NCBI GenBank assembly: GCA_902385625.1
Contig: CABMGE010000001.1
Span: forward strand, 18,765 to 82,764
From: an uncultured archaeon
GTDB taxonomy: Archaea > Nanobdellota > Nanobdellia > Pacearchaeales > GW2011-AR1
DNA length: 64,000 nt
Direction of reading: 5' to 3'
Both the position numbers and the translations under genes were made by a program. This document shows positions 1 through 51,700 of this stretch, piece after piece. Numbering within the stretch: position 1 is the stretch's first letter; the number at the start of each line of letters is the position of its first letter. The notes beneath the pieces are model-generated. The model made no database searches. It was given only the letters and a program-made list of their open reading frames with translations, and had not been told where the DNA came from.

Positions 1-1284
1 TTAAAATCTATTCCAGATCTACTTTTAGGTAAAGATCTAATTGGCATTGCTCAAACAGGTACTGGAAAAACTGCCGCATTTGTACTTCCTATTCTTCAAA
101 GAATGAAAGAAAGTTATCCAAGGGTTCCAAGAACTCTTGTACTTGCACCAACCAGGGAACTTGCAGCACAAATAGGAGAAAGTTTTAGGGCATATGGCGA
201 ATTTCTTAATTTTAAACATGCTGTTATTTTTGGAGGAGTAAGTCAGGTTCCTCAAATAAATCAAATATCAAAAGGAGTTGATATTATTGTTGCAACACCA
301 GGAAGACTACTTGATTTAATGAATCAAGGTAAGATTAGTCTAAGAACTATTGAATTCTTTGTTTTGGATGAAGCAGATAGAATGCTTGATATGGGTTTTA
401 TTCATGATATAAAAAGAATAATATTAAAATTACCTGAAAAACGTCAATCACTTTTCTTTTCAGCAACAATGTCAAGAGAAATAAATGAACTTGCAAAAAG
501 TCTTCTAAAGGGCCCAGTGCATGTAGAGGCTGCAGCACAAGCAACTACTGTAGAAAAAATAAAACAGCATATCTTCTTTGTAGATCAGGATTCAAAAGAA
601 AAATTATTACTTGAACTTTTAAATCAAAAACATTTAACCAAAGTTCTTGTATTTACTGGCATGAAATATAAGGCAAATAGGATTGCATTATTTCTTGAAA
701 AAAATAGAATTGGTGCTGATGCTATTCATGGAAATAAATCACAAAGTGCCAGAGTTAAAGCTTTAAATGATTTTAAAACAGGAAGAATAAAAGTACTTGT
801 GGCAACTGATATTGCTGCACGTGGAATTGATATTGATGATATCTCTCATGTAATAAATTTTGATCTTCCAAATGAACCTGAAACTTATGTTCATAGAATA
901 GGAAGAACAGCAAGAGCAGGAGAAGAAGGGACTTCATACTCTTTTTGTGCAGCAGATGAAAGAGATTATTTAAGAGACATTGAAAAATTAATTCGTATGC
1001 AAATTGATGTAATGGATCATGAGTTTCATTCTGAAACTGCAAAAAATGCAGAAGGTGAAGCAGCAAGGCCTATTCCAAGAAATCAGAGAGGTAGATCTAG
1101 ATATAATAACCGGTCAAATAATAGGCCCAATCATCGTAGATCCGAGGGAAGACACAGTTATCATTCAGGCAGGTCTGAAAGGTCAAATAATAGCGATAGA
1201 GATGGGGACAGACCAAGATCCAGAGGATTTAGATCAAGAAGTTTTAGTTCTAGAAGTGGAAGATCTAGTTTTAGAAGAAGATAA
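1..1284 (+). CDS. DEAD-box ATP-dependent RNA helicase, 5' end outside window; RS/RG-rich basic C-terminal tail
   Basis: Frame of ORF 103..1284 stays open back to base 1 and reads AQTGTGKTAAF (motif I). Downstream motifs PTRELA, VLDEADRM, SAT, HRIGRTARAG. Confidence 0.9.
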   Translation, partial: LKSIPDLLLGKDLIGIAQTGTGKTAAFVLPILQRMKESYPRVPRTLVLAPTRELAAQIGESFRAYGEFLNFKHAVIFGGVSQVPQINQISKGVDIIVATPGRLLDLMNQGKISLRTIEFFVLDEADRMLDMGFIHDIKRIILKLPEKRQSLFFSATMSREINELAKSLLKGPVHVEAAAQATTVEKIKQHIFFVDQDSKEKLLLELLNQKHLTKVLVFTGMKYKANRIALFLEKNRIGADAIHGNKSQSARVKALNDFKTGRIKVLVATDIAARGIDIDDISHVINFDLPNEPETYVHRIGRTARAGEEGTSYSFCAADERDYLRDIEKLIRMQIDVMDHEFHSETAKNAEGEAARPIPRNQRGRSRYNNRSNNRPNHRRSEGRHSYHSGRSERSNNSDRDGDRPRSRGFRSRSFSSRSGRSSFRRR

Positions 1285-3141: not shown

Positions 3142-3786
3142 TTAACTTAAACTATATTTTAAATAATCAAAGCCAGCAACCACTCCTGAAATACAAGTAA
3201 GTATTGCTAAATAAATTGCCCAATTAACTTGAAGAATTATAGCAGCAAATGCAATGCTTTGTATAAATGTAGTAACTTTTCCAATATATCTTACTTGGTA
3301 AGGATCTTTATTTCTAATTATTGCAATTATAAATCCAGGTAGTCCAATTATCTCTCTTGAAACTGACAAGAATAAAAGTAGGAAAATATTTGTTGGAGAT
3401 AACTTGAATATATCTTGTGTAGTAACATTGCTATTTAGGATTATAAAAATAAGCAATGCAAGGAATATTGATCCTGTAAATACTCTGTCAATAACCTGAT
3501 CAAGTCTTGCTCCGAGTTGGGTTTTCTGATTAAGTTTTCTTGCAAAAAATCCATCAAACCAGTCTGATACAGCAGCAATAGCAAATACAATGAACAATGC
3601 AATTCTTGAATAGTTCATAAATAGCATATATACAAAAACAAATACTAATAAAAGTCTTAAAAGAGTTATTGAGTTTGGAACATTTAAGATAATTTCATCT
3701 TTTATTTCTTTTTCTGCTTTTTTAATTTCAGAGCCTACTTTCTTCATTCCACTTTTAACTTTTGCTCTGTTTTTGCCATTTGCCAT
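3142..3786 (-). CDS. CDP-alcohol phosphatidyltransferase
   Basis: DWFDGFFARKLNQKTQLGARLDQVIDR matches D-x2-DG-x2-AR-x8-G-x3-D-x3-D; multi-TM. Confidence 0.85.
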   Translation of the reverse strand: MANGKNRAKVKSGMKKVGSEIKKAEKEIKDEIILNVPNSITLLRLLLVFVFVYMLFMNYSRIALFIVFAIAAVSDWFDGFFARKLNQKTQLGARLDQVIDRVFTGSIFLALLIFIILNSNVTTQDIFKLSPTNIFLLLFLSVSREIIGLPGFIIAIIRNKDPYQVRYIGKVTTFIQSIAFAAIILQVNWAIYLAILTCISGVVAGFDYLKYSLS

Positions 3787-3866: not shown

Positions 3867-4172
3867 CTACTTTTTTGTAACCTTTTCTTCCTTAAATAAA
3901 TATTTTGCAATTAAAAATACTACAAAAGCAATTATTATAAAATTTATCAATGCTCCAAGAAATGCTCCCCATCCTATTACTGCCGGGCCAAGATTAAATG
4001 TTGCCTTTTGCCATTCACCCTTTGGAATAAATGGAGTGATAAGAGGCATTATTATATTATTAACCAGCGACTGGATAAGAGTTGTAGATGCCGCACCTAT
4101 TATAAATGCAACAGCAAGTCCAATTACCTTATATTCTTTTAAAAAATCTCTGAATTCAGATATTAATGTCAT
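3867..4172 (-). CDS. mscL: large-conductance mechanosensitive channel
   Basis: SEFRDFLKEYKVIGLAVAFIIGAA...NNIIMP resembles the MscL N-terminus and TM1; about 100 aa, two TM. Confidence 0.8.
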   Translation of the reverse strand: MTLISEFRDFLKEYKVIGLAVAFIIGAASTTLIQSLVNNIIMPLITPFIPKGEWQKATFNLGPAVIGWGAFLGALINFIIIAFVVFLIAKYLFKEEKVTKK

Positions 4173-4223: not shown

Positions 4224-5570
4224 TTAATTTTCATATCTTCCACAACATAGAACAACACTTCTTCCTCCAAAACCAAAAGAAGATGAAATAAAATTATTTA
4301 TTTTTCTATCTCTTGCTTTGTTTGGAACATAGTCAAGGTCACAAGGTACAAAATATTTTTGCAGTCTTTCATCATGATAGTCTTTTTGAGTATCTGGATT
4401 ATCAAGATTTATAGTGGGAGGAATTACGCTATTCTTCATGGACATAATAGATATTATTAGTTCAAGTCCGCCTGATGCGTTTAATGTATGTCCTAGTCTG
4501 GATTTGTCTGAAGATATTGTAATGTTTTTGGCATACTCTCCAAATGACTGTTTTATTGCAAGTGTCTCCTGCCAATCATTAAATTTTGTTGAGGTTCCAT
4601 GTGCATTTATATGATTAATATCTTCAGGATTTAGTCTCGCCATTTCAAGCGATTGTTTTATTGCAAGAGTTGCATATTTTGCATCAGACCTTGGACTAGT
4701 AGGATGATCTCCATCAAGTTTTGCACCATATCCCTTTATTTCAGCATAAATATTTGCTCCTCTTTTTTTCGCATGTTCAAGTTCTTCGAGAATTACAACT
4801 CCTGCACCATCGCCAATAACAAATCCATTTCTATCACGGTCAAATGGTCTTGATGCATGAGAAGGATCATCATTTCTATATGATGTTGCTCTGAGTTTTG
4901 AAAATCCTCCGTGAGTTAAAAAAGAAAATGCATCTCCTGTTCCTCCACAAATCATTGTATCAGCAAGACCAAGTTGAATATTCATGCAACCATTCATTAT
5001 ATTTGAATTTCCTGAACTACATTCTGTGCAAACCGAAGGCCCATCTCCTGCATGTAACTGATGATTAGCAGCAATGTATGCTGCAGGTGCTCCTGGAAGA
5101 GTTTTGAATGCAATAAAATCATCTATCTCTAAAAGTCCTTCTCTGCAAACTTTAATCACTGCCTTTTCAATATCACTAATTCCTCCAAAACCACTTCCTA
5201 TTGAAACTCCTGTTCTTTCTTTTATTTGTTCAGTAGTAGCAGGATTATAAAAAATCCCAGAATCTTCAATAGCTTCTTTTGCAGCAGCAGATGCAATTCT
5301 TGTGTCATGACACATTCTTCTTTTTGATTCTTTTCCAAATCGCTCATGATTGATTTGTTCTGGATAAAATAAAGAGCCAATATAAGATCCATTCGTTTTA
5401 AGTATTGGAATTTCATTATCTCCATTTATCCTAACCATCACTGGAATTTCACTTGAGACATCTCGAATGACACTTTTCCCTGCCCTTGAATTTTCAAATA
5501 AATCTTTTACATTAAGTCCAAGTGGAGTAAATGCCCCCATTCCTGTAACAACAACTCTTTTGCCTTCCAT
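4224..5570 (-). CDS. beta-ketoacyl synthase, elongating KAS I/II (FabF/FabB-like) type
   Basis: KRVVVTGMG N-terminus; active-site Cys in CTECSSGNS; HGTSTKFND and GHTLNASGGLE His motifs (Cys-His-His triad). Confidence 0.85.
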   Translation of the reverse strand: MEGKRVVVTGMGAFTPLGLNVKDLFENSRAGKSVIRDVSSEIPVMVRINGDNEIPILKTNGSYIGSLFYPEQINHERFGKESKRRMCHDTRIASAAAKEAIEDSGIFYNPATTEQIKERTGVSIGSGFGGISDIEKAVIKVCREGLLEIDDFIAFKTLPGAPAAYIAANHQLHAGDGPSVCTECSSGNSNIMNGCMNIQLGLADTMICGGTGDAFSFLTHGGFSKLRATSYRNDDPSHASRPFDRDRNGFVIGDGAGVVILEELEHAKKRGANIYAEIKGYGAKLDGDHPTSPRSDAKYATLAIKQSLEMARLNPEDINHINAHGTSTKFNDWQETLAIKQSFGEYAKNITISSDKSRLGHTLNASGGLELIISIMSMKNSVIPPTINLDNPDTQKDYHDERLQKYFVPCDLDYVPNKARDRKINNFISSSFGFGGRSVVLCCGRYEN

Positions 5571-6731
5571 TTAATCACTCCGAGTATTTTCTGCATACTC
5601 CCTATCTAGAGATTCAAATACCTCTTTAACTGAAATTATTTTATCGCATCTCCATGCATTTGCACCTGCGAATACATATCCATTTCCAAACTCTCCTTTC
5701 TGAGCTTCAACTAAAGCTCTTGCAATACAATAAGGAGATTCTTCAGGTTTACAGGTTTTAAGGCAATGATAAGGGCATGCAATCGGAATTGTTTCTCCTT
5801 TTTCAACCCTATTTAAAAAATCATTAACAATTGCTCTTCCAGGCATTCCAACAGGACTATTGATAATTCTTAAATCCTCTTTTTTGCAATTGATATAAGC
5901 TTGTTTGAATTTCAAGTCTGCATCACATTCATGAGTTGTTACAAATCTTGTTGCCATCTGAACTCCAGAGGCTCCAAGTTCATGGAATTTTCGAATATCT
6001 CCTCCATAAAATATTCCTCCTGCAGCAATTACCGGAATATTTCCATATTCTTTTACAGCAAGAATTACTTCAGGAATTATTTTTTCAAGTCCATTAGAAA
6101 CATAATCTGGATTATCTAATTGTTCCCTAGAATAACCTAGATGTCCGCCGGCTTTTGGTCCTTCAACAATTACTGCGTCTGGAATATGGCCTAGCTTTGC
6201 CCATGCCTTACACATCATTCCTGCAAGTTTTCCAGAAGAAACAATTGGTGTAAGTTTTATATCTTTTCCATTCAAATAACTAGGAAGATCTCTTGGAATT
6301 CCAGCTCCTGAAACAATCATATCAATATTTTCTTCAACCGCAGTTTGAACAAGTCCTGAATAATCAGAAAGAGCATGCATAATATTTACTCCAACAATTC
6401 CATTAGTAAGACTCCTTGCTTTTCTAATTTGATCCCTTAGTGCATTTTGATTTGCAAAAGAATATAATTCTCCCATAATTATTTTTTTATCATCTTCACT
6501 AGATGCATTTCTTAGCCTATTTTTGTTTCTGTTCATTTCATCCTTGAAATGTCCATTGAGAACTCCAAGTCCAACACTTGCGATCATTGGAATTCCTTCT
6601 TCATTTGAAACTTCAGAAACAATTCCCGATTGAGTAACTCCAACTCCCATTCCACCAAGAATCAATTTACCTTCTAAATATCTTCCACTTCCATTACCTA
6701 TTTTTATTTTAGGTATATTATTGATACCCAT
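5571..6731 (-). CDS. nitronate monooxygenase / FabK-like FMN enoyl reductase family protein with C-terminal Cys cluster
   Basis: GGMGVG, IVEGPKAGGHLG and AAGGI motifs; CPYHCLKTCKPEESPYC near the C-terminus; stop codon directly abuts the KAS start codon. Confidence 0.7.
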   Translation of the reverse strand: MGINNIPKIKIGNGSGRYLEGKLILGGMGVGVTQSGIVSEVSNEEGIPMIASVGLGVLNGHFKDEMNRNKNRLRNASSEDDKKIIMGELYSFANQNALRDQIRKARSLTNGIVGVNIMHALSDYSGLVQTAVEENIDMIVSGAGIPRDLPSYLNGKDIKLTPIVSSGKLAGMMCKAWAKLGHIPDAVIVEGPKAGGHLGYSREQLDNPDYVSNGLEKIIPEVILAVKEYGNIPVIAAGGIFYGGDIRKFHELGASGVQMATRFVTTHECDADLKFKQAYINCKKEDLRIINSPVGMPGRAIVNDFLNRVEKGETIPIACPYHCLKTCKPEESPYCIARALVEAQKGEFGNGYVFAGANAWRCDKIISVKEVFESLDREYAENTRSD

Positions 6732-6801
6732 AAAAAATCTAGTATAAATTGGCTTTTAAAGATTTATATGCATTATTTATTACTGTATTAAAATAAAACC
6801 A

Positions 6802-8313
6802 TTAAAGACTTTCCAGATATTTTACATGCTCTATTGATTGCGGACTATGGAGTACTTTTCTTCCTGAAAATTTTGTATATGCAAGAAGGCCTGTTGCAAT
6901 CATTTTATGCCCCCAGGGACGAGAAAAAGCAACTCTTTTAATCCCATTGGTCCAGGAATAAAAATTTTCATACATCTCATATAATATTTTCTGAAGTTCA
7001 AGAGGATTTTTGAAATTTTTAGGTTTGAATAAAACATGATCTCCTTCATAAAGATGGTAATGAGGATCAGATTCAGGATAAATTAGTCTGTCTTCTGATT
7101 TAAATTGTTTTTCAATATCGCTTCCAGGTAATGGGATTAATGCAAAGAACTGTGCACTATCCACATTTCTCGGAGCCCATCCACATAATTCTTTTGCTTT
7201 TGTAGAATTATCATTATCTTCTCCAACAATAAACATTCCATGAGTCCAAAAACCATAATCTCTTATTTTCTTAACAGAATCTATTACTCTTTGTGCGCTG
7301 TATCCCTTATTCATTCCATTTAAAATTTCATCATCAATAGACTCAATTCCAAGACATACTGCTCTTGCTCCAGCTTTCCATAAAAGATCCATAAGTTCAG
7401 AATCATCTGCAAGTTGAATTGTAGACTGAAATACAAATGGTTTATCATTTAGATCATTTTCAACCATGTACTCAAGCAGTCTCTTTGCTCTTTTTCTGTT
7501 AGCAATAAAATTGTCTCCTGTCATAAATATATATTGTCCATGACTTTTTGTTCTTGTAAGTTCATCGCCCATCCATATGTCTGATTTCTCCCTGAAACTC
7601 CTGCCATATGCTTTTGTAACAGTACAAAAATTGCAATCTTTCGGGCAGCCTCTGGAATCTTCAATAGGAAATGTTTTCACCCCTTCAAGTGTTGTCTGAT
7701 CATAATCAGGATGTATAATGCTTAATTTTTCAGGAGAGAGTCTTGCCCTGGGATTTGTATAAATAACTTCATTATTTTTTTCAAAAGCAATTCCATTGAC
7801 ATCTTCTACACTTCCTCTTTCTCCTGCAAGAGTTAGAAGAAGTTCAGGAAAAGTTTCTTCTGCTTCTCCAATAACCACAAAATCAGAATGTTTTGCAAAT
7901 TCCTCTGATCTAAATGAGGGTCCAAATCCTCCAGAGATTGTAATTTTATCCCTATACTGATCAAGTAGTTTTGTTGCCTGCGGATCAGTTCTTGTAATTG
8001 AAGAAACTCCAACTATTGCTGCTTCTTGTAATAATTTTCTATTTTCAAAACTGTTTATATTTCCATGATGTTGGCTAAGATAATCAATATTTGTAAAACC
8101 AGCTTGTTTTGCAGCAGCACCAACATAATGTATTCCTCTTGCAGCAAGTTTATATGAAGTATAAATATCATAACTAGGATCTCCCCCAAGTTTTCCAAAT
8201 TGGGTTGGTCCTGGTTCAACAAGTACTATTAAATCTTTTCTTGAAATTTTTCTTATCATGTTTTTATAACCTATGTTATTGATTTTAAATTTTTTTCTTT
8301 TAAGTGTTATCAC
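6802..8313 (-). CDS. B12-binding-domain radical SAM protein
   Basis: DSRGCPKDCNFCTV (CxxxCxxC) after a Rossmann-like N-domain. The longest ORF starts at GTG 8313; the first ATG is at 8259. Confidence 0.8.
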   Translation of the reverse strand: MITLKRKKFKINNIGYKNMIRKISRKDLIVLVEPGPTQFGKLGGDPSYDIYTSYKLAARGIHYVGAAAKQAGFTNIDYLSQHHGNINSFENRKLLQEAAIVGVSSITRTDPQATKLLDQYRDKITISGGFGPSFRSEEFAKHSDFVVIGEAEETFPELLLTLAGERGSVEDVNGIAFEKNNEVIYTNPRARLSPEKLSIIHPDYDQTTLEGVKTFPIEDSRGCPKDCNFCTVTKAYGRSFREKSDIWMGDELTRTKSHGQYIFMTGDNFIANRKRAKRLLEYMVENDLNDKPFVFQSTIQLADDSELMDLLWKAGARAVCLGIESIDDEILNGMNKGYSAQRVIDSVKKIRDYGFWTHGMFIVGEDNDNSTKAKELCGWAPRNVDSAQFFALIPLPGSDIEKQFKSEDRLIYPESDPHYHLYEGDHVLFKPKNFKNPLELQKILYEMYENFYSWTNGIKRVAFSRPWGHKMIATGLLAYTKFSGRKVLHSPQSIEHVKYLESL

Positions 8314-8330: not shown

Positions 8331-8420
8331 AAAAAATAGCGCGCGAGCATATTTAAATTAGTATCTAAACCAATTTGTTTAATTTGGATATGCGAGTAAG
8401 GATTTGAACATTCAAATCCT
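8331..8420 (-). repeat. degenerate partial copy of the adjacent tRNA 3' end, including a perfect 10-bp hairpin (8399..8420)
   Basis: aaaaaatagcgcg occurs at 8331-8343 and 8431-8443. aggatttgaac occurs at 8399-8409 and 8447-8457. aggatttgaa-ca-ttcaaatcct is a perfect inverted repeat. Confidence 0.5.
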
Positions 8421-8436
8421 ACTTATTTTTAAAAAA

Positions 8437-8512
8437 TAGCGCGGGCAGGATTTGAACCATGCGACTTCCGGGTTATGGGCCCGGCGAGAACTCCAGGCTT
8501 CTCTACCGCGCT
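8437..8512 (-). tRNA. tRNA-Met (CAT), initiator-type
   Basis: Hand-folded cloverleaf: AGCGCGG/CCGCGCT acceptor with A1:U72, GAGA/TCTC D stem, CCGGG-CCCATAA-CCCGG anticodon arm with three G:C pairs, GGTTCAAATCC T-loop. The T stem needs one bulged U. Confidence 0.8.
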
Positions 8513-8572
8513 ATTGCTCTATAATTAATATAGATATAAACACGAGCTTTAAAACCCTTATAAAGTTAACGT

Positions 8573-13375: not shown

Positions 13376-16240
13376 ATGACCTATATCAAAAAATTGGTGA
13401 TAAAAGGGTTTAAATCTTTTGCACGTGAAACTGAAATAAATATGGATCCGCATATGAATGTAATTGTAGGTCCAAATGGTTCTGGAAAATCCAATGTCAC
13501 AGATGCATTATGCTTTGTTCTTGGAAGACTTTCTATAAAAAGTATGCGTGCAGCAAAAGCATCCCACTTAATTTTCTCTGGAAACAAGCAATATAAAGGT
13601 GCAAATGAAGCATTTGTTGAAATTTCTTTTGATAATGCTGATAAGACTTTTGCTCTAGATCACGCTGAGATATCAGTCAGAAGAATAGTAAGGAAAAATG
13701 GCCAGAGCATATATAGAATAAATAATGAAACAAAAACAAGACAAGAAGTACTTGAATTGCTTGCACAGGCAGGAATTGACCCTCATGGATTTAATATTGT
13801 TTTACAGGGAGAAATTGAAAAATTTGTTAAAATGCCTCCTGAAGAAAGAAGAAAAGTCTTAGAAGAAGTTGCAGGAATTTCAGTTTATGAAATGAGAAAG
13901 GAAAAATCATTAAAAGAACTTGAAAAAACAGAAGAAAACATAAAACAGACAAATTCAGTCTTAAGGGAGAGAACAACCTATCTGAGAAATCTTGAAAATG
14001 AAAGAGAGCAAGCACTAAAATTTAAAAAACTCCAGGAAACAGTTAAGAGATGTAAAGCTTCAATAATAAACCGAAACCTGCAGGAAAAAGAAAAAGAACT
14101 AAGTTCTAATCTTGGAGATATTGACTCCAAAAATAAGGAGATAAAAAAAAGAGAAGAGCAAATTGTAAAAGTAGGTCAGGAAATAAATGCCTTAAATGAA
14201 AAAATAAATAATATTTCTCAAACTATCCAAAATTCATCAGGCCTTGAACAAGATGCACTTTTACTTGAAATATCTACACTAAAGCAGGAAGTAGCAGGGC
14301 TAATTGCAAAAAAGGAAAACTTTGAAAATCAGGTTCTTGAACTCAAAAGAAGAAAACAATCACTTGAAGATTCTGTCAAAGTAATGGAGGAAGAAATAAG
14401 TGAAATATCAAAAGAAAAAGGAAAAGACAAGAAAAAAGAACTAGAGACAAAAAAAGCAAGGCTAGAAGAACTTGACGAAGCAAAAAGACAATACTTTGTA
14501 ATTAAGTCAAGCTTGTCATCAACCCTCTCTCAATTGGATGATAAAAAAAGACAGGTCCAAAGATTCAAAAACGAGTCCAATTTTATAATGGATCAGATTG
14601 AACAAATAGAAAAAGAAATAAGAATAAAAGAAGATTTGGAAAGACACCAAGAAGCAATAATAAATCTAAAAAATTTAATTGAGGAAAATAAGACTGCTGT
14701 TGTAAAGTTTGAAGAAGAAATGCTTGAAAAACAAAAGATCTCCGCTGCGCAAAGCCATGTAATTCTTGAAGCAGAAAAAGTAAAATCACAGGTTTCAAAA
14801 CTTGATATCTGTCCCTTATGTAAAACAAAGATCACAAAAGAACACATTGATGAGGTAATAAGTAAATCTAATTCAGATATAACTAACTCCAAAAACCTGG
14901 TTCAACAATTAGAAAAGGAAATTAAAGAAATGAAAACTGCCTTGACTGAATTAAAGGATAAAATTGCAAAAGAAGCACTTGAAATAAATCAGAGAAATGT
15001 GGATATAGTAAAATTACACTCAATAGATGATAAAAAACAGCAGTTAAGAAGAAATAACGAGCAAATAACTATTTTTGAATCTGAAATTGCAGGTCTTGAA
15101 ACAAAGAAAAAAGGTTTTGAAGGAAAAATTTCAATAACAAAGATAAGCGAAGAACAGTATGAAGCATTAAAACTCGAAGTAAATGAGCTTCAAAGAACAG
15201 AAGAGAGAAATTTAGGAGTTGAAATAACTTCTAAACAAAGGGAACTTGAAAGGATAAGGCTTGCAATAAAACAAAACATCAGGGATTTTGATGATATTAC
15301 AGAGCAGTTAAAGGATATAAAACAAAGTTTGGATGATAAACAACATATAGTAAAAGAAAAAGAAGAGCAAGCTGAAATTTTGAAAAGAAAATATCAGAAA
15401 ATGTTTGAACAGAAAAATGAACTTCAGGATAAAGTAAGGATGTTTGAGTCAAACTTAATGCATAAGCAAAATGAGAAAAGACTTCTTGAAAACGAAAATA
15501 ATAATCTTATGATCACAAAAGCACAGATTTCAGCAAGAAAAGAAACTTTAATGCAGGAAATAAGAGAATATGAAGGAATTGAATTTATTTCTTTATCTGT
15601 GGATAAACTAGCTGAAAAACTAAAAGAAACTGAAGATATTCTTTCAAGAATTGGAAGTGTTAATATGAGGGCTCTTGAAGTCTATGATGAAATAAAACTT
15701 GAGTATGATAAAATAAGGGAAAAAGTTGAACAGTTGGAAAAAGAAAAGCAGGAAATACTGGGTGTAATAGATCAGATTGACAAGAAAAAGAAAAAGGCTT
15801 TCATGCATACCCTTGAAAAAATAAATGAATTATTCTCTAGAAATTTCTCTCAGTTAAGTACCAAGGGAATTGTAACTCTTGAGCCAGAAGATAAAAAAGA
15901 AGTTTTCAATGCAGGACTTGATATAATTGTAAAAGTTGGAGGAGGAAAATATTTTGATGTTACTTCTCTATCAGGAGGAGAACAGACTCTTGTTGCATTA
16001 TCTTTAATTTTCTCAATACAGGAATTCAAGCCTTATTGTTTTTACATATTTGATGAAATAGATGCAGCGCTTGATAGAAGAAACTCAGAAAAGTTAGCTT
16101 ATCTTCTCAAAAAGTATATGAAAGAAGGACAATATCTAATAATTACTCACAATGATTCAATAATCTCCGAGTCTTCAAATGTTCTATATGGAGTATCAAT
16201 GCAGGAAGGTATTTCCAAGGTTCTTAGTTTGGAAGTTTAG
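13376..16240 (+). CDS. SMC-like coiled-coil ATPase with central CxxC (zinc-hook-like) instead of a hinge
   Basis: SMC-type head: KGFKSFA, GPNGSGKSNVTDALCFVLG, LSGGEQTLVALSLIFSIQEFKPYCFYIFDEIDAALD. Long K/E-rich coiled coil. CPLC at codons 479-482 of 954. Confidence 0.85.
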   Translation: MTYIKKLVIKGFKSFARETEINMDPHMNVIVGPNGSGKSNVTDALCFVLGRLSIKSMRAAKASHLIFSGNKQYKGANEAFVEISFDNADKTFALDHAEISVRRIVRKNGQSIYRINNETKTRQEVLELLAQAGIDPHGFNIVLQGEIEKFVKMPPEERRKVLEEVAGISVYEMRKEKSLKELEKTEENIKQTNSVLRERTTYLRNLENEREQALKFKKLQETVKRCKASIINRNLQEKEKELSSNLGDIDSKNKEIKKREEQIVKVGQEINALNEKINNISQTIQNSSGLEQDALLLEISTLKQEVAGLIAKKENFENQVLELKRRKQSLEDSVKVMEEEISEISKEKGKDKKKELETKKARLEELDEAKRQYFVIKSSLSSTLSQLDDKKRQVQRFKNESNFIMDQIEQIEKEIRIKEDLERHQEAIINLKNLIEENKTAVVKFEEEMLEKQKISAAQSHVILEAEKVKSQVSKLDICPLCKTKITKEHIDEVISKSNSDITNSKNLVQQLEKEIKEMKTALTELKDKIAKEALEINQRNVDIVKLHSIDDKKQQLRRNNEQITIFESEIAGLETKKKGFEGKISITKISEEQYEALKLEVNELQRTEERNLGVEITSKQRELERIRLAIKQNIRDFDDITEQLKDIKQSLDDKQHIVKEKEEQAEILKRKYQKMFEQKNELQDKVRMFESNLMHKQNEKRLLENENNNLMITKAQISARKETLMQEIREYEGIEFISLSVDKLAEKLKETEDILSRIGSVNMRALEVYDEIKLEYDKIREKVEQLEKEKQEILGVIDQIDKKKKKAFMHTLEKINELFSRNFSQLSTKGIVTLEPEDKKEVFNAGLDIIVKVGGGKYFDVTSLSGGEQTLVALSLIFSIQEFKPYCFYIFDEIDAALDRRNSEKLAYLLKKYMKEGQYLIITHNDSIISESSNVLYGVSMQEGISKVLSLEV

Positions 16241-17205
16241 AAGTATACAAATTTATGTTCTTTTGAAATTGTTAAAATATCAATGCTTTTTATTGTATCT
16301 GAGAATTTATCGCGAATATCTTTTAATATATTATCAAATTCTGCCTCAGAATTAACTTCAAATTCAGGTTCGAGTTCCCAATTACCTAACACTTGCACAT
16401 TATGAATTATATTCTTATTTGACTTAAAATAATTCAACAATTGTTCAACTCTTTCCTTTTTTGGATTTTCAAGATAAAAAAAGGTTTTATAAAAGTTAAT
16501 TCCAATTTTTGAGTAATTAATTGCAATTCTAAATCCTGAAATTATCTTATTTTTTATCAGCTGTTTAATCCTATAATTGATTACTCTTTCACTTTCTCTT
16601 AGTTTGTAGGCAATATCTACAATAGGTTTTCTTCCATTCTCACTTAATTCTTTTATTATTTTTAGATCTAGTTCATCAATTTCAACTTTTCGATTATCTT
16701 CAAAAAGAATTCTTTCCCGGTTTATTAAACTTTTATTGTTGGTTAAAAAATCACGATTATATACTTCAGACTTATAACAAATAGAGACTGCTTTTTCTCG
16801 AATATATCCCGAGAACGCGCTTATAATTTTATCTTTTAGTACATTGATCTCTTGCAAGGATTTTGCCTCTGCAGAAATTATTATATCCCAATTGCCCTTA
16901 CATGAAGCTATCCATTTTACTTCTTTATTTGATTCTAAACGTTTTATTATATTTGAAAGTTTTTCTGAATCCATATGTTGGAACGAGAGAACTATCTTGA
17001 ATTGGATAATCCCAAGTTTCGCAAGATCAAGTACAATTTGATATTGAGTTATTATTTTTTCTTCTTCAAGCCTCTTTATTCGATAGTTGACAACTTCAGT
17101 TGAGAGTCCGACTTTTTTTGCTATCGCAGAACAAGGCTGTCTTGCATTAAGGTCAAGTTCATATAAAATCTTACGGTCTTTCAAATCTAATTTATATTGA
17201 TCCAT
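16237..17205 (-). CDS. tandem-duplicated Lrp/AsnC-type winged-helix regulator (paralogue of 11706..12683)
   Basis: DRKILYELDLNARQPCSAIAKKVGLSTEVVNYRIKRL and LKIIKELSENGRKPIVDIAYKLRESERVINYRIKQL. ATG 17205 (MDQYK) preferred over the ORF maximum 17286. Confidence 0.75.
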   Translation of the reverse strand: MDQYKLDLKDRKILYELDLNARQPCSAIAKKVGLSTEVVNYRIKRLEEEKIITQYQIVLDLAKLGIIQFKIVLSFQHMDSEKLSNIIKRLESNKEVKWIASCKGNWDIIISAEAKSLQEINVLKDKIISAFSGYIREKAVSICYKSEVYNRDFLTNNKSLINRERILFEDNRKVEIDELDLKIIKELSENGRKPIVDIAYKLRESERVINYRIKQLIKNKIISGFRIAINYSKIGINFYKTFFYLENPKKERVEQLLNYFKSNKNIIHNVQVLGNWELEPEFEVNSEAEFDNILKDIRDKFSDTIKSIDILTISKEHKFVYF

Positions 17206-17298
17206 ATTTATAATAAATACAAATAGTATATAAATTTTGTCTTTTTTATAAAAAATAGAATAACAGGTTTTATTATTATATATCACTACTATTAAGTT

Positions 17299-18867
17299 AT
17301 GAAAAAAATAATATTTGTTAAACCTGCGCTTGAAACAGATGCAGTTTGGGATCCAATAAGAACCTGTTCATATTTGGGAATGTGGTATTTGGCATCTCAC
17401 TTAAAATCAAAAGGGCATGATGTAACTTATTTGGATGAAGTGGTTAGAAATAATGGTTTATCTAAAAGAACTCTCTTTAAAAGAGAAATTAAAGGAGACA
17501 ATATTACCGAAACTCATCTTGCACAATCATATGAAGAATTTTCTTCTCAAAAAATGCAGGATTATCATAATTTATCTCCTGAAAATTTTATTGAAAAATA
17601 CTCTGCATTTAGTGAAGAAGGAAAAGTTTCAAGAACCATGGTGAGAACTGGAAATTCTTTGGAAGATACTTTAGTCGAAATTGAAAAAATAAATCCTGAT
17701 GTTGTAGGTATTCCATTAATAGCAACTGCAAATTATTTGCCTGCAACTAGACTCGCAAAAGCAATAAAAACAAAATTCCCAAATATAAAAGTTATATTCG
17801 GAGGACAGCATATTTCTGCAGGTCCTGAGGCATTTATTAAAGAAAATCCTTATGTTGATCAAATCGTAACAGGTGATGCTATTTCTGTAATAGAAGATGT
17901 TATTGAAGGTAGAAGACTCGAAAAAATTGTTCACGGAGGATTTAGGGCAATGGAAGAGTTTCCTATCTTAGACCCTTCAATTATAGAAAATACTGGCTAT
18001 CCTATTGAACCGACTTATACTTATCCCACAAATGGAAGAAAATCTGTAGATTTTATGTTTTCAAAAGGATGTTTTAGAAGGTGTGAATTTTGTGTAGCTG
18101 GAAGTCAGAAAGGAAATCACATAACTGCTACAGATTATGAGAGACTTGAAGAGCAACTTTCTGAATTAAAAAAATATGGAATAGAAGAACTGGTTATACA
18201 AGATGATGCTTTTCTTCGTGACCCCAAACATAGAAAAGAAGATTTGCCAAAAATTTTAGGACTTATGAAAAAATATGGTTTTTACTGGCAAAATAATGGA
18301 GGAATAGAATTTGAAGGCCTGGATGATTTTGTAACTGAACAATTAATTAAATATAATCGCGAAGGAGAGGGAAGAGTAACTTCACTTTATGTTCCATTCA
18401 ATCCTCGTATATGGAATAAAGAACAAAGTGCTGCGAAGTCCATGTCTTCAAGATATCATGAGAATGCAGAAAATTTAAAAAAACTAAGAGAAGAAGGTGG
18501 AATCTATATTTTTACAAGTGCAATTATAGGAACTCCAGAGCAAACAGAAGAGGCATTTAATGAAGAACTTCAGACTGATAAGGAATTAATCCAACATGGT
18601 TATCTGGATTCTGCACTTTGTTTGTCTGCAACAATGCTTCCTGGAACAAGATGGTATGAAAGCAATGGGCATAATATTGTAAATAAGAAAGATTATGCAG
18701 GGTATTCCTTATTTGCTACACATCATAAAACTGAGAATCTTGAATCAAAAGATATTGAGAGGTTAATGGTAACCTGGACTAAATCACTGGATGAAATTCA
18801 AAAAACTTATCATTGGGGAACAGGTTTTCCAAACATTCAAACTAAATTATTTGAAAGGGGGCAATAA
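17299..18867 (+). CDS. B12-binding-domain radical SAM protein
   Basis: FSKGCFRRCEFCVAGSQ (CxxxCxxC) after a Rossmann-like N-domain (VVGIPLIATANY, VIFGGQH). Confidence 0.8.
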   Translation: MKKIIFVKPALETDAVWDPIRTCSYLGMWYLASHLKSKGHDVTYLDEVVRNNGLSKRTLFKREIKGDNITETHLAQSYEEFSSQKMQDYHNLSPENFIEKYSAFSEEGKVSRTMVRTGNSLEDTLVEIEKINPDVVGIPLIATANYLPATRLAKAIKTKFPNIKVIFGGQHISAGPEAFIKENPYVDQIVTGDAISVIEDVIEGRRLEKIVHGGFRAMEEFPILDPSIIENTGYPIEPTYTYPTNGRKSVDFMFSKGCFRRCEFCVAGSQKGNHITATDYERLEEQLSELKKYGIEELVIQDDAFLRDPKHRKEDLPKILGLMKKYGFYWQNNGGIEFEGLDDFVTEQLIKYNREGEGRVTSLYVPFNPRIWNKEQSAAKSMSSRYHENAENLKKLREEGGIYIFTSAIIGTPEQTEEAFNEELQTDKELIQHGYLDSALCLSATMLPGTRWYESNGHNIVNKKDYAGYSLFATHHKTENLESKDIERLMVTWTKSLDEIQKTYHWGTGFPNIQTKLFERGQ

Positions 18868-48794: not shown

Positions 48795-51700
48795 TTATTT
48801 CTTCTTTGCCTTTTCAACAATAGGTTCAGTAGAATGTTTAGAAGAATCTTTTGTCTTTTTTGTAAGTTTTTCTACACTCTTGTCTTTCTTTGGTTCTTTG
48901 TCTGTTAGAGGTCCTGTTACTTCAACCATAAGGCCAGGAAGTCCTGTACCAACTGGAACAGGTTGATTCAAGATTATATTTTCAATTACTGAATTAAGTT
49001 CATCTTTGTTTTCTTTAAGTGTTGCATTTACAAACTGTTTAACTGGTGTTTCGAATGAAGCTCTTGCAAGTATTGAACTTTTCTGTGAAATTATTCCCAT
49101 TCTTGTAATTCCTTTAACAATTCCTTCAGATGTCATTGCATCTGCAATTAATTGAGAGTGTCTTCTGTCAATATCAAGTCCCTGAGAGTTGATTACCTTC
49201 TGGATTTCCTTAATTATTGTTTCTCTTGCAACTTCAATTCCAAATACATCTGAAACTTCATGAATATCATTTGAAATTGTCTTTGACTTGTTAATTCCCT
49301 TAAATGCTATTATGTCTTTAAGGTTTGTTCCTGCAGTAAGAATAACATATCCATCTTCTCTTTTAACAACAAGAACCTGTTCAATTCCTTTAACACCTGA
49401 AATTATAGATTCTTTTACTTTTTCTTTTAACTTGTAAATGTCCTTGAAATTAAGCTCTTTCTCATTAAACACAATCATGTTTCCATTTGCCTTGCAGTTT
49501 TTTCCAAGTTTTAATTCCTTTAGTCTGTTTGCAATAGTTTCAACTGAAGAATGAACTCTTTTAACAGCATCAGCATCAATAACTGCTTCTATTTTTTTAT
49601 CTGCAAAGTTAATTTTAATTTCTTTTACAATATCTTTAAGTGTTACTTCTTGTATTTTTTCTGCAATAATCTTTGCATCTTTTTCATTATTATGGTCTTT
49701 ATCCAGATAAATTTCCATTGTTGGAGTTGAAGGTGTTCTTCTTGCATCAAAGATTTCAATCAGTCTTGGAAGTCCTGATGTTACCTGGAACTCAGAAACT
49801 CCTGCAAAGTGGAATGATGAAAGTGCCATCTGTGTTGATGGTTCTCCAAATGATTGAGCAGTAACAATACCAATTGCCTCTCCAGGACATACGTCTTGAT
49901 TTTTATGAAGTCCAGAAACATCTTTTCCATCTTCTCCATATTTAAACTGTATTATAGCTCCGCTTCCATCTCTTACTGTTTTATCATATTCAACTCTTAT
50001 ATCTTGAAGTGCATTTGCAAGTCTTCTGTATAAGTAACCTGATTTTGGAGTTCTAAGAGCAGTATCCATCAGAGCATCTCTTCCTGTTATTGCTCCAAAG
50101 AAGAATTCATAAGGTTCAAGTCCTTTCAAGAATGAATTGTAAATAAATCCTCTTGACTTTGGAGACAAATCTCCTTCTTTGAAAAATGATAGGGTTCTGT
50201 TATTATAACCAATTCCAATTCTCTTTGCCCAAAGTGCCTGCTGACCTACACAACATGCCATCTGTGTGATATTAAGTACATTTCCTCCAGCACCTGCATT
50301 TATCATAAAGCTTACTGGATTTGTTTTGGCAACTTCTTTCTCAACTATTTTTCCTATTTTTGTTCTGATTCCGTTAAGTGTCTGAAGAATCTTTATCTCT
50401 CTTGTTTCTTCAGGAGTTTTTCCTGGAATTATTTCAAGAGTATTTTTTCTATAACTTTCAATAATTTCATCTGTTTCTTTTTCAGCATCTTTGATTATAT
50501 CTTCAGTAGATTTTTTTATTTTTTCATTAACATTAAGATCATTTACAGAGATTGTAAATCCATGTCCTGAAAGATAATGAGTACCAAGTCTGAATGCTTT
50601 TTCTAAAACATCTATTGTTTTTGTTCTTCCAACTTGCCCATCTAAAAATTTCAAAAGTTCTCCTGCTTCAACTCCAAATACATTCTTATCCACAACACCT
50701 GATTCTATTTCTCCACTCTTGATTACAAATGGATCTCCAGATTTTGTCTTGCCTTTATAGTCTATTTTTGGAATTATTTGAGATATTATTTCCTTTCCAT
50801 TAATCATACTTTTAGAAACTCTTGCGTCTATTCCAGTCTGGAATAATAACTGTGAAGAATCTGCCTTTGAGATCATATTGCTACTAAGTAAATAATTTCC
50901 AGTAACAGCATCAGATACACATCCAAGCATATTACTATTATCTTTGCAGGAAATTAAATTTTGATTTACATCCATAAGTATCTTTGCTTCTGCTCTTGCT
51001 TCTTCTGTTTGTGGAACATGAATATTCATTTCATCTCCATCAAAATCTGCATTGTAAGGAGGAGCAGTTGCTGGATGTATTCTAAATGTTTTGTATGGAA
51101 GAACTTTTACAAAGTGAGCCATCAAGCTTGCTTTATGAAGTGATGGGTGTCTATTAAAGAGTACAACATCTCCATCAATTAATTGTCTTTCGACAACATA
51201 TCCAGGTTGAAGTTCATCAAGAATTTCTTGCTTTAAGTCCTGAGTAACTCTTTTTCTTCTTCCATCAGGCCTTATTATATAATTTGCAGTAGGATAGTGT
51301 TCGTGTTTTATTACTTCTTTTAAGTTTTCAATATTTTTTGTTGTAACCTTTTCATTAACTGTAAGTATTTCAGCTATTTCAAAAGGAACTCCAACTTCAT
51401 TTATTTTAAGTGCAGGATCAGGAGAGATAACTGTTCTTGAAGAGAAATTAACTCTCTTTCCAGCAAGATTATGTCTGATTCTTCCTTCTTTTCCTTTTAT
51501 TCTTTCAGTAATAGTTTTAAGAGGTTGTCCGCTTCTGTGTCTTGCAGGTGGAATCTTTGTAATTGAGTTATCAAAGAATGTTGTAACATGATATTGAAGT
51601 AAATCCCATAAATCCTCGATAATAACTTCAGGAGCTCCTGCATTAAGGTTTTCCCATAATCTTTGGTTTGCTCTGATTATATCTGATAATTTGTGTGTAA

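What the first reader, a model, noticed from the sequence alone, without database searches (positions are those of the whole stretch)
4224..8313. Bacterial-type KAS + FabK-like reductase abutted, behind a B12-radical SAM gene, without the rest of a FAS
A full Cys-His-His elongating ketoacyl synthase is unusual for an archaeon. Its ATG directly follows the stop of a FabK/nitronate-monooxygenase-family flavoprotein, with a zero-nt gap that implies translational coupling. That flavoprotein carries an extra CPYHCLKTC...YC cluster. A B12-domain radical SAM enzyme lies 70 nt upstream on the same strand. A CDP-alcohol phosphatidyltransferase and mscL lie just downstream. No ACP, FabD, FabG or FabZ is nearby. 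Possible roles are an ACP-independent acyl-elongation module or a lipid-tail-modifying module. A secondary-metabolite function is also possible. All of these roles are inference.
Basis: partly seen in the sequence, partly recalled or inferred. Interest (0 to 1): 0.6.

Follow-up and report, generated by a model that had tools for sequence, protein, structure and literature searches.

The report
Archaeal FabX–FabF fatty-acid gene pair
A tiny symbiotic archaeon (Pacearchaeota, DPANN) carries a tightly coupled pair of bacterial-type fatty-acid genes: an iron-sulfur flavoenzyme of the FabX family, which in bacteria puts double bonds into fatty acids without oxygen, and a chain-extending synthase. 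The pair recurs in its relatives, but the neighbouring radical SAM gene is not part of the unit, and no other fatty-acid synthase gene lies within 64 kb.

Summary
On the minus strand lie a B12-radical SAM gene (6802-8259), an NMO-family flavoprotein (5571-6731), and a Cys-His-His ketoacyl synthase (4224-5570) whose ATG abuts the flavoprotein's stop. mscL and a CDP-alcohol phosphatidyltransferase follow. The host is an archaeon. The 64 kb window holds no ACP, FabD, FabG, FabH, PlsX or other fab-type gene.

The interpretation needs correcting. The flavoprotein is not FabK-like. It belongs to the FabX/UfaA family: 41% identity to H. pylori FabX, with all FMN residues, the catalytic His and the four [4Fe-4S] cysteines conserved.

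FabX-like plus KAS is a two-gene cassette. The FabX-like gene sits directly upstream of the KAS in 5 of 7 KAS-bearing Pacearchaeota lineages, and promoter and Shine-Dalgarno features predict a bicistronic unit.

The radical SAM gene has its own promoter. It occurs without the pair in at least four relatives, one with rSAM directly followed by mscL, so the trio is not a unit.

The window's KAS is only 38-43% identical to the KAS of close relatives (SMC 69-75%). It has lost half of the canonical ACP-docking residues.

Most likely this is a bacterial-derived module for anaerobic double-bond insertion plus elongation. Its acyl carrier is unresolved. Interest is moderate.

The parts
5571..6731 (-). 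FabX/UfaA-family FMN + [4Fe-4S] flavoprotein (NMO superfamily), 386 aa; first cistron of the pair
   Evidence: Pfam NMO E 3e-49. Best PDB hit is 7E1Q/9JSY, H. pylori FabX, E 6e-67 (identity of the entry confirmed in PMC8626469). 41% identity over 346 aligned positions. FMN residues N116/E190/Q258/T261, catalytic H197, S292 and Cys 319/323/327/335 are all conserved. They are invariant or nearly so in 32 close homologues, most from DPANN archaea.
4224..5570 (-). FabF-type (KAS II-like) beta-ketoacyl synthase, 448 aa; second cistron, ATG abuts the upstream stop codon
   Evidence: Pfam and NCBIfam. Best PDB hits are FabF structures at E 2e-84. C184/H324/H361, K356, T291, T326 and the G433-F434-G435-G436 gate are kept. 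It carries a lineage-specific 14-17 aa insert before CDLDYVP, shared by all DPANN KAS sequences. dN 0.14 / dS 0.87 against L262.
5574..5581 (-). Shine-Dalgarno-like GGAGTGAT inside the 3' end of the FabX-like gene, 3 nt before the KAS ATG
   Evidence: Sequence. SD-like motifs precede only 5 of 53 genes in the window.
6755..6760 (-). TATA-like TTTAAA starting 29 nt upstream of the FabX-like ATG; putative promoter of the bicistronic unit
   Evidence: TTTAWA peaks at -30..-25 across 53 gene starts (12 hits against about 3 per 6-nt bin).
6802..8259 (-). B12-binding radical SAM enzyme (class B), 485 aa; a neighbour with its own TATA-like box (8284-8289), not part of the conserved unit
   Evidence: Pfam Radical_SAM and B12-binding. 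The CxxxCxxC motif C205/C209/C212 is invariant. Best PDB hit is the glutamine C-methyltransferase QCMT 9CCB, E 2e-26. It occurs without the pair in the P0242 contig, L265, L095 and L097, and in the short contig L098.
3867..4172 (-). mscL, large-conductance mechanosensitive channel; a syntenic neighbour
   Evidence: Pfam MscL E 6e-23. In the P0242 contig it directly follows the rSAM gene.
3142..3786 (-). CDP-alcohol phosphatidyltransferase (PgsA-like), 214 aa; recurrent neighbour of the KAS
   Evidence: Pfam E 1e-27. The motif D-x2-DG-x2-AR-x8-G-x3-D-x3-D is present in the translation. It lies next to or near the KAS or the rSAM in L001, L087, L093 and L095.
8436..8513 (-). tRNA-Met bounding the island; its 3' end is repeated 100 nt downstream at 8331-8345

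Best explanation
The core of the finding is a two-gene, bacterial-derived cassette in a Pacearchaeota (DPANN) chromosome. It holds a FabX/UfaA-family FMN/[4Fe-4S] acyl-thioester dehydrogenase/isomerase, followed with a 0-nt gap and a Shine-Dalgarno site by a FabF-type condensing enzyme.

In H. pylori, FabX feeds FabF; in E. coli, FabA feeds FabB. By that analogy the pair would form the oxygen-independent branch that inserts a double bond and then elongates. The flavoenzyme would convert a medium-chain saturated acyl thioester into a cis-3-enoyl thioester. The KAS would then add two carbons from a malonyl thioester and so fix the double bond in the growing chain.

The carrier, the malonyl donor, the ketoreductase and the dehydratase are not in the 64 kb. 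They must be encoded elsewhere or be supplied in some other way.

The cassette sits in a variable membrane-related island between RNase HII and a DEAD-box helicase. That island also holds a CDP-alcohol phosphatidyltransferase, mechanosensitive channels and, in some genomes, a B12-radical SAM enzyme. The radical SAM gene is separately transcribed and occurs independently of the pair.

Shown: the family assignments, the conserved catalytic and cofactor residues, conservation of the pair, purifying selection, and the absence of partner genes nearby. Inferred: the substrates, the direction of the flavoenzyme reaction, the nature of the carrier, and the lipid end product.
For: - FabX assignment and residue map.
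- KAS assignment and catalytic residues.
- Junction and SD site. Promoter pattern predicting a bicistronic unit.
- FabX-like gene directly upstream of the KAS in the window, L087/L088/L258/L260, L093, L259/L261 and L264.
- In bacteria the same flavoprotein family sits inside fab operons in Planctomycetota (plsX-fabH-X-fabD-fabG-acpP-fabF) and in a Bacillota MAG (fabG-X-fabF).
- Purifying selection on the KAS (dN 0.14, dS 0.87).
- DPANN MAGs with FabG, FabI, FabZ and ACP-pathway genes have been published. Bacterial fatty-acid genes in Woesearchaeota.
- The FabX-like proteins keep basic residues at two of the three ACP-docking helix positions. The K152 equivalent is R/K in 32 of 32 sequences and the R164 equivalent in 27 of 32.
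Against: - No ACP, FabD, FabG, FabH or PlsX, and no hotdog or PPTase domain among the scanned ORFs, in 64 kb or in any related DPANN locus fetched.
- The window's KAS has charge-reversing or neutralising changes at FabF's ACP-docking residues: K65E, R127L, K128E, S130D, P131D (residue list from PMC7138838). K65E weakens AcpP crosslinking in E. coli FabF.
- The FabX-like gene is common in DPANN without any KAS next to it. It also occurs in a Methanosarcinales MAG. Its archaeal role therefore need not involve a KAS.
- H. pylori FabX uses O2 as its electron acceptor in vitro. The acceptor in anaerobes is unknown.
- The closest KAS relative (79% identity, L262/L006) has no FabX-like gene within 181 nt upstream.
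Confidence: 0.5

Rival explanations
1. Carrier-protein-independent (CoA-based or non-canonical carrier) tailoring of scavenged acyl chains. The host-dependent archaeon takes up fatty acids or lipids. It desaturates or isomerises them and extends them with this pair, without a canonical acidic ACP. The products are passed to the neighbouring CDP-alcohol phosphatidyltransferase.
For: - No ACP or ACP-loading genes in 64 kb or in related loci.
- The window-clade KAS has lost three of the six basic ACP-docking residues and gained acidic ones (K65E, K128E, S130D, P131D). It also has an insert of about 20 aa just N-terminal of docking region 1.
- The KAS is far more diverged (38-43%) than the genome background (SMC 69-75%). 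That fits a functional shift or an allele replacement.
- The KAS recurs next to a CDP-alcohol transferase.
Against: - No FabF-family enzyme with a CoA-only substrate was identified here.
- The second DPANN KAS subclade (L087, L093) keeps K65, R68, K69 and K128.
- The FabX-like proteins keep the basic docking helix.
- Published DPANN MAGs do carry ACP-pathway genes.
- One condensation without a ketoreductase and a dehydratase gives a beta-keto product, not a usable chain.
Confidence: 0.22
2. The flavoprotein works in the reductive direction as the enoyl reductase of an otherwise ordinary type II FAS, with electrons arriving through the Fe-S cluster. The locus would then be simply a fragment (ER + KAS) of a FAS whose other genes are scattered.
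For: - In Planctomycetota loci L219 and L245 the same family sits in the fab operon between fabH and fabD, and no separate enoyl reductase was looked for there.
- Overexpressing the F. nucleatum FabX homologue partly compensates for FabK inhibition.
Against: - The characterised members (H. pylori FabX, N. gonorrhoeae UfaA) are dehydrogenase/isomerases for unsaturated fatty acids.
- The NAD(P)H site of FabK is replaced by the Fe-S subdomain.
- The FabK equivalog cut-off is missed by a wide margin.
Confidence: 0.15
3. A three-gene lipid-tail-modifying or secondary-metabolite module (rSAM + flavoprotein + KAS).
For: - The three genes are adjacent on one strand here, and in L093 in a different order.
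- Distant (about 28% identity) bacterial relatives of the rSAM sit in ACP/FabD/FabF/FabG/NMO clusters.
Against: - The rSAM occurs without the pair in the P0242 contig (RNase HII, a 130-aa gene, rSAM, MscL), L265, L095 and L097, and in the short contig L098.
- The pair occurs without the rSAM in L087 and L264. In L259 no rSAM lies upstream, and its downstream side was not read.
- The rSAM has its own TATA-like box at the typical distance.
- No CLF, ACP or thioesterase is nearby.
Confidence: 0.06
4. A decaying remnant of horizontal transfer with no current function.
For: - The KAS evolves fast.
- The FabX-like gene is split into two ORFs in L264.
- The partner genes are missing.
Against: - Every catalytic and cofactor residue is kept in all DPANN copies compared, five KAS and 32 FabX-like sequences.
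- dN/dS is about 0.16.
- Both ORFs are intact, with a coupled junction.
Confidence: 0.05

Closest known systems
[quoted passage not shown]
   Same: The same flavoprotein family: 41% identity, FMN residues, catalytic His, and a C-terminal four-Cys [4Fe-4S] subdomain. The partner enzyme is a FabF-type KAS. K152 and the critical R164 (as Lys) of the ACP-docking helix are retained.
   Different: The host is an archaeon. The two genes are fused into one translationally coupled unit. R160 is replaced by Ala. No ACP or other FAS II gene lies within 64 kb. The KAS has a partly acidified ACP-docking surface. The electron acceptor is unknown.
E. coli FabA-FabB two-enzyme branch for unsaturated fatty acids
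   Same: The same logic: one enzyme makes the cis-3 intermediate and a dedicated KAS elongates it.
   Different: FabA is a hotdog dehydratase/isomerase, not a flavoprotein. The KAS here is FabF-like (KAS II), not FabB.
FabK (enoyl-ACP reductase II, e.g. S. pneumoniae 2Z6I)
   Same: NMO/TIM-barrel FMN fold and the catalytic His.
   Different: FabK has an NAD(P)H-binding part where this protein has the Fe-S subdomain. It scores 125 bits against the FabK equivalog cut-off of 453.
Bacterial-type FAS II genes reported in DPANN MAGs (PMC10936187, PMC8204110)
   Same: Bacterial fatty-acid genes in Woese-/Pacearchaeota-like archaea, with best non-DPANN hits in bacteria.
   Different: The passages read from those reports name FabG, FabI, FabZ and G3P dehydrogenase. 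They do not name a FabX-FabF cassette.
Class B (B12-dependent) radical SAM methylases, e.g. QCMT (PDB 9CCB), and TIGR04072 'lipid biosynthesis B12-binding/radical SAM protein'
   Same: Domain architecture and the CxxxCxxC motif. QCMT is the best solved relative.
   Different: No NCBIfam family cut-off is reached (best 92 bits against 481). No match to the tetraether synthase at E<0.01. The substrate is unknown, and the gene is not linked to the pair.

Membership tests
FabX/UfaA (FMN + [4Fe-4S] acyl-ACP dehydrogenase/isomerase) | NMO TIM-barrel with FMN-binding residues N99, E175, Q240, T243 | tested here: met
   N116, E190, Q258, T261. Invariant or nearly so in 32 close homologues, most from DPANN.
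FabX/UfaA (FMN + [4Fe-4S] acyl-ACP dehydrogenase/isomerase) | Catalytic His182, stabilised by S273 | tested here: met
   H197 and S292, both invariant.
FabX/UfaA (FMN + [4Fe-4S] acyl-ACP dehydrogenase/isomerase) | C-terminal subdomain with four Cys ligands (C300, C304, C308, C320) in place of the FabK NAD(P)H site | tested here: met
   C319, C323, C327, C335. Present in 31-32 of 32 homologues. The feature is defined in PMC8626469.
FabX/UfaA (FMN + [4Fe-4S] acyl-ACP dehydrogenase/isomerase) | ACP-docking helix alpha7 (K152, R160, R164) and T130 | tested here: inconclusive
   K168 and K179 are kept as basic residues. R160 is Ala176 and T130 is Arg147.
FabX/UfaA (FMN + [4Fe-4S] acyl-ACP dehydrogenase/isomerase) | Dehydrogenation and isomerisation of decanoyl-ACP; required for unsaturated fatty acids | not testable with these tools
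   Needs an enzyme assay or complementation.
FabK (enoyl-ACP reductase II) | Reaches the TIGR03151 equivalog cut-off; has the NAD(P)H-binding part | tested here: not met
   125 bits against a cut-off of 453. Solved FabK-type enoyl-ACP reductases match at only E 3e-23 or weaker, against 6e-67 for FabX.
FabF / KAS II | Cys-His-His triad, Lys335, Thr270/Thr305, and the GFGG gating loop with Phe400 | tested here: met
   C184, H324, H361, K356, T291, T326, G433-F434-G435-G436.
FabF / KAS II | NCBIfam score cut-offs | tested here: inconclusive
   The subfamily model NF005589 is passed (393.6 against 387). The equivalog TIGR03150 is not (402 against 494).
FabF / KAS II | Basic ACP-docking patches (K65, R68, K69; R127, K128, R206) and the I129-S130-P131-F132 patch | tested here: not met
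   The window has E81, R84, R85; L147, E148, R227; I149-D150-D151-F152. In 29 bacterial FabF sequences K65 is Lys in 29 and position 128 is R/K in 28 (residue list).
FabF / KAS II | Works with an ACP and the other FAS II enzymes encoded in the same genome | tested here: inconclusive
   None found in the 64 kb or in related loci. The whole genome was not available.
Class B B12-dependent radical SAM enzymes | N-terminal B12-binding domain plus a radical SAM core with CxxxCxxC | tested here: met
   Pfam 41.6 bits (cut-off 32.1) and 70.9 bits (cut-off 29.5). C205, C209 and C212 are invariant.
Known lipid radical SAM enzymes (HpnR, HpnJ, TIGR04072 'ladderane-type', Tes/GDGT-MAS) | Reaches the family cut-off, or shows significant similarity to the solved structure | tested here: not met
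   HpnR 66 against 650, HpnJ 62 against 578, TIGR04072 61 against 360. No PDB hit to a tetraether synthase at E<0.01. GrsA/B and Mss were not tested because no sequences were at hand.
CDP-alcohol phosphatidyltransferase | Motif D-x2-DG-x2-AR-x8-G-x3-D-x3-D | tested here: met
   DWFDGFFARKLNQKTQLGARLDQVID in the translation. Pfam 97.7 bits.

The most novel reading that the evidence does not exclude
In host-dependent Pacearchaeota, a FabX-type Fe-S flavoenzyme and a FabF-derived synthase have become a self-contained cassette that no longer uses a canonical acyl carrier protein. The cassette remodels scavenged acyl chains by desaturating and extending them before a neighbouring CDP-alcohol transferase builds the phospholipid. 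It would be a bacterial fatty-acid tailoring route operating in an archaeon across the 'lipid divide'. The window-type KAS allele would have been swapped in at the same chromosomal site.
Probability: 0.2. Interest if true: 0.75.

Novelty: new variant of a known kind. Interest (0 to 1): 0.5.

Why it matters
DPANN archaea are thought to depend on their hosts for membrane lipids, and how they obtain or tailor those lipids is largely unknown.

A conserved, selected FabX-FabF cassette beside a phospholipid head-group transferase gives a concrete and testable handle on that question. It would also extend the recently defined FabX family into Archaea; that family is the anaerobic route to unsaturated fatty acids in bacteria lacking FabA.

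If the KAS works without a canonical ACP, it would be an unusual departure for the FabF family.

If the genome turns out to carry ACP and the other fab genes, the locus is an ordinary, horizontally acquired piece of a type II FAS. It would then be of interest mainly for archaeal-bacterial gene flow.

Tried and rejected
1. Looked for the source genome or close KAS relatives among GTDB species representatives. Only bacterial FabF at about 40% came back. A DNA pattern for the lineage-specific insert found two Pacearchaeota genomes and five metagenome contigs.
2. Tried to extend beyond the window through exact-protein look-ups. The window's own proteins are not on record, so ACP and the other fab genes could not be searched genome-wide.
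4. Rejected 'FabK-like reductase'.
5. Rejected Tes, HpnR, HpnJ or ladderane-type identity for the rSAM.
6. Tested whether the DPANN KAS groups with KS genes that neighbour distant rSAM relatives in bacteria. It does not. In a rough neighbour-joining tree it falls among housekeeping FabF sequences, apart from those KS genes.
7. The gene upstream of the KAS in L001 gave no Pfam or PDB hit. It shows only motif-level similarity to the NMO profile (0.9 bits), so it is left unassigned.
8. The second B12-rSAM in the window (17299-18867) is not a paralogue of the first.
9. The supplements of PMC8204110 held no fab, ACP or NMO entries.
10. The repeat at the tRNA-Met 3' end was searched for a distant partner. 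Only the copy 100 nt away exists.

Full report
**1. Observation**

On the minus strand, in order, lie:
- a B12-binding radical SAM gene, 6802-8313 as an ORF;
- an NMO-family flavoprotein, 5571-6731, 386 aa;
- a beta-ketoacyl synthase, 4224-5570, 448 aa;
- mscL, 3867-4172;
- a CDP-alcohol phosphatidyltransferase, 3142-3786.

Pfam and NCBIfam confirm every family. The flavoprotein stop TAA (5573-5571) is followed at once by the KAS ATG. The rSAM stop lies 70 nt from the flavoprotein start.

The rSAM gene most likely starts at ATG 8259, giving 485 aa. All 13 close homologues are 485-489 aa.

The window is archaeal. It encodes RNA polymerase A'/A'' and B, aEF-2, and archaeal/eukaryotic-type S12 and S7. 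GC is about 31%. Syntenic relatives are labelled Candidatus Pacearchaeota.

**2. The flavoprotein is FabX-type, not FabK-type**

It scores 125 bits on the FabK equivalog, whose cut-off is 453. Its best solved relatives are 7E1Q, 9JSY and 9LT5 at E 6e-67. The best FabK-type enoyl-ACP reductase structure reaches only 3e-23.

7E1Q is H. pylori FabX. It is a bifunctional decanoyl-ACP dehydrogenase/isomerase in which a C-terminal [4Fe-4S] subdomain takes the place of FabK's NAD(P)H site (PMC8626469).

Mapping the published residues onto the alignment gave 41% identity over 346 positions:

| Role in FabX | FabX residues | Window residues |
|---|---|---|
| FMN binding | N99, E175, Q240, T243 | N116, E190, Q258, T261 |
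| Catalytic His | H182 | H197 |
| His support | S273 | S292 |
| [4Fe-4S] ligands | C300, C304, C308, C320 | C319, C323, C327, C335 |
| ACP docking | K152, I156, R160, R164 | K168, M172, A176, K179 |

In 32 close homologues, most from DPANN, these residues are invariant or nearly so. The K152 and R164 equivalents are R/K in 32 and 27 of the 32 sequences.

The family is also known as UfaA in N. gonorrhoeae. [quoted passage not shown]

**3. The KAS**

It is FabF-like, with best PDB hits at E 2e-84. It passes the NF005589 subfamily cut-off but not the fabF equivalog cut-off.

To number its residues I used a bacterial FabF that aligns with E. coli FabF over its whole length. The offset shifted by one residue in the middle of the alignment, so I re-anchored the numbering on invariant motifs. 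On that numbering the KAS keeps:
- C163, H303, H340 as C184, H324, H361;
- K335, T270, T305, D311, E314;
- the G-F400-G-G gate.

Only three close relatives exist among 5.8 billion clustered proteins, at 79%, 55% and 84% (the last partial). After them come bacterial FabF sequences at about 42%.

More diverged copies turned up through gene context. A DNA pattern for a lineage-specific insert found further ones. The five DPANN copies aligned share a 14-17 aa insert before CDLDYVP that bacterial FabF lacks. In a rough neighbour-joining tree they group together among housekeeping FabF sequences. They do not group with the KS genes that neighbour distant rSAM relatives in bacteria.

dN is 0.14 and dS 0.87 against the closest relative, which indicates purifying selection.

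**4. What is conserved around it**

Seven KAS-bearing lineages were seen.

| Lineage | Arrangement |
|---|---|
| Window | rSAM, FabX-like, KAS, mscL, CDP-OH transferase |
| L087/L088/L258/L260 | FabX-like, KAS ... CDP-OH transferase, MscS |
| L093/L094 | FabX-like, KAS, rSAM, CDP-OH transferase |
| L259/L261 | FabX-like, a 142-aa Gly/Tyr-rich ORF, KAS |
| L264 | FabX-like (split into two ORFs), KAS |
| L001-L005/L263 | unassigned gene, KAS, CDP-OH transferase, PGM |
| L262/L006 | no FabX-like gene within 181 nt upstream |

So the FabX-like gene lies directly upstream of the KAS in 5 of 7 lineages.

The rSAM gene behaves independently. It occurs without the pair in five contexts:
- a contig that reads RNase HII, a 130-aa gene, rSAM, MscL, which is the window's layout minus the two genes;
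- L265, beside sugar-nucleotide genes;
- L095, next to a CDP-OH transferase;
- L097;
- L098, a short contig.

The FabX-like gene by itself is common. It occurs in DPANN without a KAS. At 46-53% identity it occurs in many anaerobic bacteria and in a Methanosarcinales MAG.

In 76 of the 80 loci fetched with the FabX-like profile, no fab gene lies within the flanks. In two Planctomycetota loci it sits inside plsX-fabH-[X]-fabD-fabG-acpP-fabF. In one Bacillota MAG it sits between fabG and fabF.

**5. Transcription units (inferred)**

Across 53 gene starts in the window, TTTAWA peaks at -30..-25. That bin has 12 hits against about 3 per 6-nt bin elsewhere. SD-like motifs precede only 5 of the 53 genes.
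- The FabX-like gene has the box at -29.
- The rSAM gene has it at -30.
- The KAS has no box, but GGAGTGAT lies 3 nt before its ATG.

This predicts a bicistronic FabX-like/KAS message and a separate rSAM message.

**6. The rest of a FAS**

I built HMMs for ACP, FabD, FabG, FabH and PlsX from 80 bacterial fabF loci, 59 of which carry an ACP. They find nothing in the 64 kb or in any DPANN locus fetched.

Pfam scans of the larger window ORFs show no SDR, hotdog, acyltransferase or phosphopantetheinyl-transferase domain. Three ORFs of 110 aa or more and most of the 60-110 aa ORFs were not scanned.

The whole genome was out of reach. Published DPANN MAGs do carry FabG, FabI, FabZ and ACP-pathway genes (PMC10936187; PMC8204110). 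A scattered FAS II therefore cannot be excluded.

**7. An unexpected feature of this KAS**

The window shares a high level of identity with L087, L093 and L259 in housekeeping and neighbouring genes, but not in the KAS.

| Gene | Identity to L087 / L093 / L259 |
|---|---|
| SMC | 69-75% |
| RNase HII | 76-79% |
| DEAD helicase | 88% (L087 only) |
| FabX-like | 77%, 68%, 49% |
| KAS | 38-43% |

The window's KAS instead belongs with the L001 and L262 copies (55-79%).

At the FabF residues that dock AcpP (list from PMC7138838), this subclade reads as follows.

| FabF residue | K65 | R68 | K69 | R127 | K128 | R206 | S130 | P131 |
|---|---|---|---|---|---|---|---|---|
| Window KAS | E | R | R | L | E | R | D | D |

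In 29 bacterial FabF sequences, K65 is Lys in 29 and position 128 is R/K in 28. The other DPANN subclade keeps K65, R68, K69 and K128.

An insert of about 20 aa lies just N-terminal of the first docking region.

Two readings fit. Either the allele was replaced in situ, or it evolved fast after a change of partner. The locus abuts a tRNA-Met whose 3' end is repeated 100 nt downstream. In L088 a phage-type integrase sits directly upstream of the FabX-like gene. Both fit a recombination-prone site.

**8. Mechanism and verdict**

Best supported (about 0.5): a bacterial-derived two-enzyme branch.
- The FabX-like enzyme makes a cis-3-enoyl thioester from a saturated medium-chain acyl thioester.
- The coupled KAS elongates it. 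This mirrors FabX-FabF in H. pylori and FabA-FabB in E. coli.
- The product feeds membrane lipid synthesis.
- The carrier and the remaining cycle enzymes are encoded elsewhere or are absent.

Rivals:
- a carrier-independent tailoring cassette for scavenged acyl chains (about 0.22);
- the flavoprotein acting as an Fe-S-dependent enoyl reductase of a scattered FAS (about 0.15);
- a dead remnant (about 0.05).

The rSAM is a class B B12-radical SAM enzyme of unknown substrate. Its best solved relative is the glutamine C-methyltransferase QCMT. No lipid rSAM family cut-off is reached.

Novelty: a new variant of a known kind. Bacterial FAS II genes in DPANN and the FabX family are each known. Interest is 0.5.

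Noticed in passing
window 8331-8345 and 8395-8418 (minus strand), next to tRNA-Met 8436-8513: The last ~15 nt of the tRNA-Met (CGCGCTATTTTTT) recur 100 nt downstream. Between the two copies lies a hairpin, GGATTTGAA-TG-TTCAAATCC, that resembles the tRNA T-arm. It looks like an old integration scar. In relative L088 a phage-type integrase sits directly upstream of the FabX-like gene.
   Followed up: partly
window 48795-52352 (-): RNA polymerase subunits A' and A'' are encoded as one 1185-aa ORF. It matches A' at residues 4-819 and A'' at 816-1138. To my recollection, most archaea have two separate genes.
   Followed up: no
window 17299-18867 (+): A second B12-binding radical SAM gene (522 aa), unrelated to the first beyond the core motif (BLASTP E 3e-4). 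It lies next to an Lrp/AsnC-type regulator at 16237-17286.
   Followed up: partly
whole window, 53 gene starts: TTTAWA boxes peak 25-30 nt upstream of start codons, and SD-like motifs precede only 5 of 53 genes. This suggests mostly leaderless transcripts. The KAS is one of the few genes with an SD-like site.
   Followed up: partly
window 4224-5570, residue F128 (GSGFGG): The position equivalent to FabF Ile108 is Phe in the window subclade. From memory, I108F in B. subtilis FabF (PDB 4LS6, the top PDB hit here) confers cerulenin resistance, and in E. coli FabF it narrows the acyl pocket.
   Followed up: no
window 103-1284 (+): The DEAD-box helicase ORF starts at profile position 45 of the DEAD domain and is about 100 aa shorter than its 497-aa homologue in L087. 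An in-frame stop lies upstream, near the window edge. This may be a frameshift or a truncated N-terminus.
   Followed up: no
L219 10001-11119 and L245 10001-11119 (Planctomycetota): A FabX-like gene (46-48% identical to the window protein) sits inside a canonical fab operon, plsX-fabH-[X]-fabD-fabG-acpP-fabF. That is the position I recall fabK occupying in Firmicutes fab operons.
   Followed up: partly
L259 6299-6724 / L261 4959-5384: A 142-aa Gly/Tyr-rich protein with a signal-like N-terminus is inserted between the FabX-like gene and the KAS in one Pacearchaeota lineage. It has no Pfam match.
   Followed up: partly
L264 4234-5532 (-): The FabX-like gene upstream of the KAS is split into two ORFs, 5074-5532 and 4234-5070. 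This may be a pseudogene or an assembly error.
   Followed up: no
L001 2-967 (+): In the 55%-identity KAS lineage, the gene upstream of the KAS has no Pfam or PDB match. It carries GG...GAIGVQVGSLF and GGGHS motifs reminiscent of the NMO barrel (0.9 bits to the NMO profile). It may be a very remote flavoprotein replacing the FabX-like gene.
   Followed up: partly
L108, L129, L153, L157, L121, L132, L140 (Desulfobacterota and relatives): Distant (about 27-30% identity) bacterial relatives of the rSAM lie in clusters with ACP, FabD, FabG, FabF-like or NMO genes. So B12-radical SAM enzymes recur next to FAS-like genes in anaerobic bacteria.
   Followed up: partly
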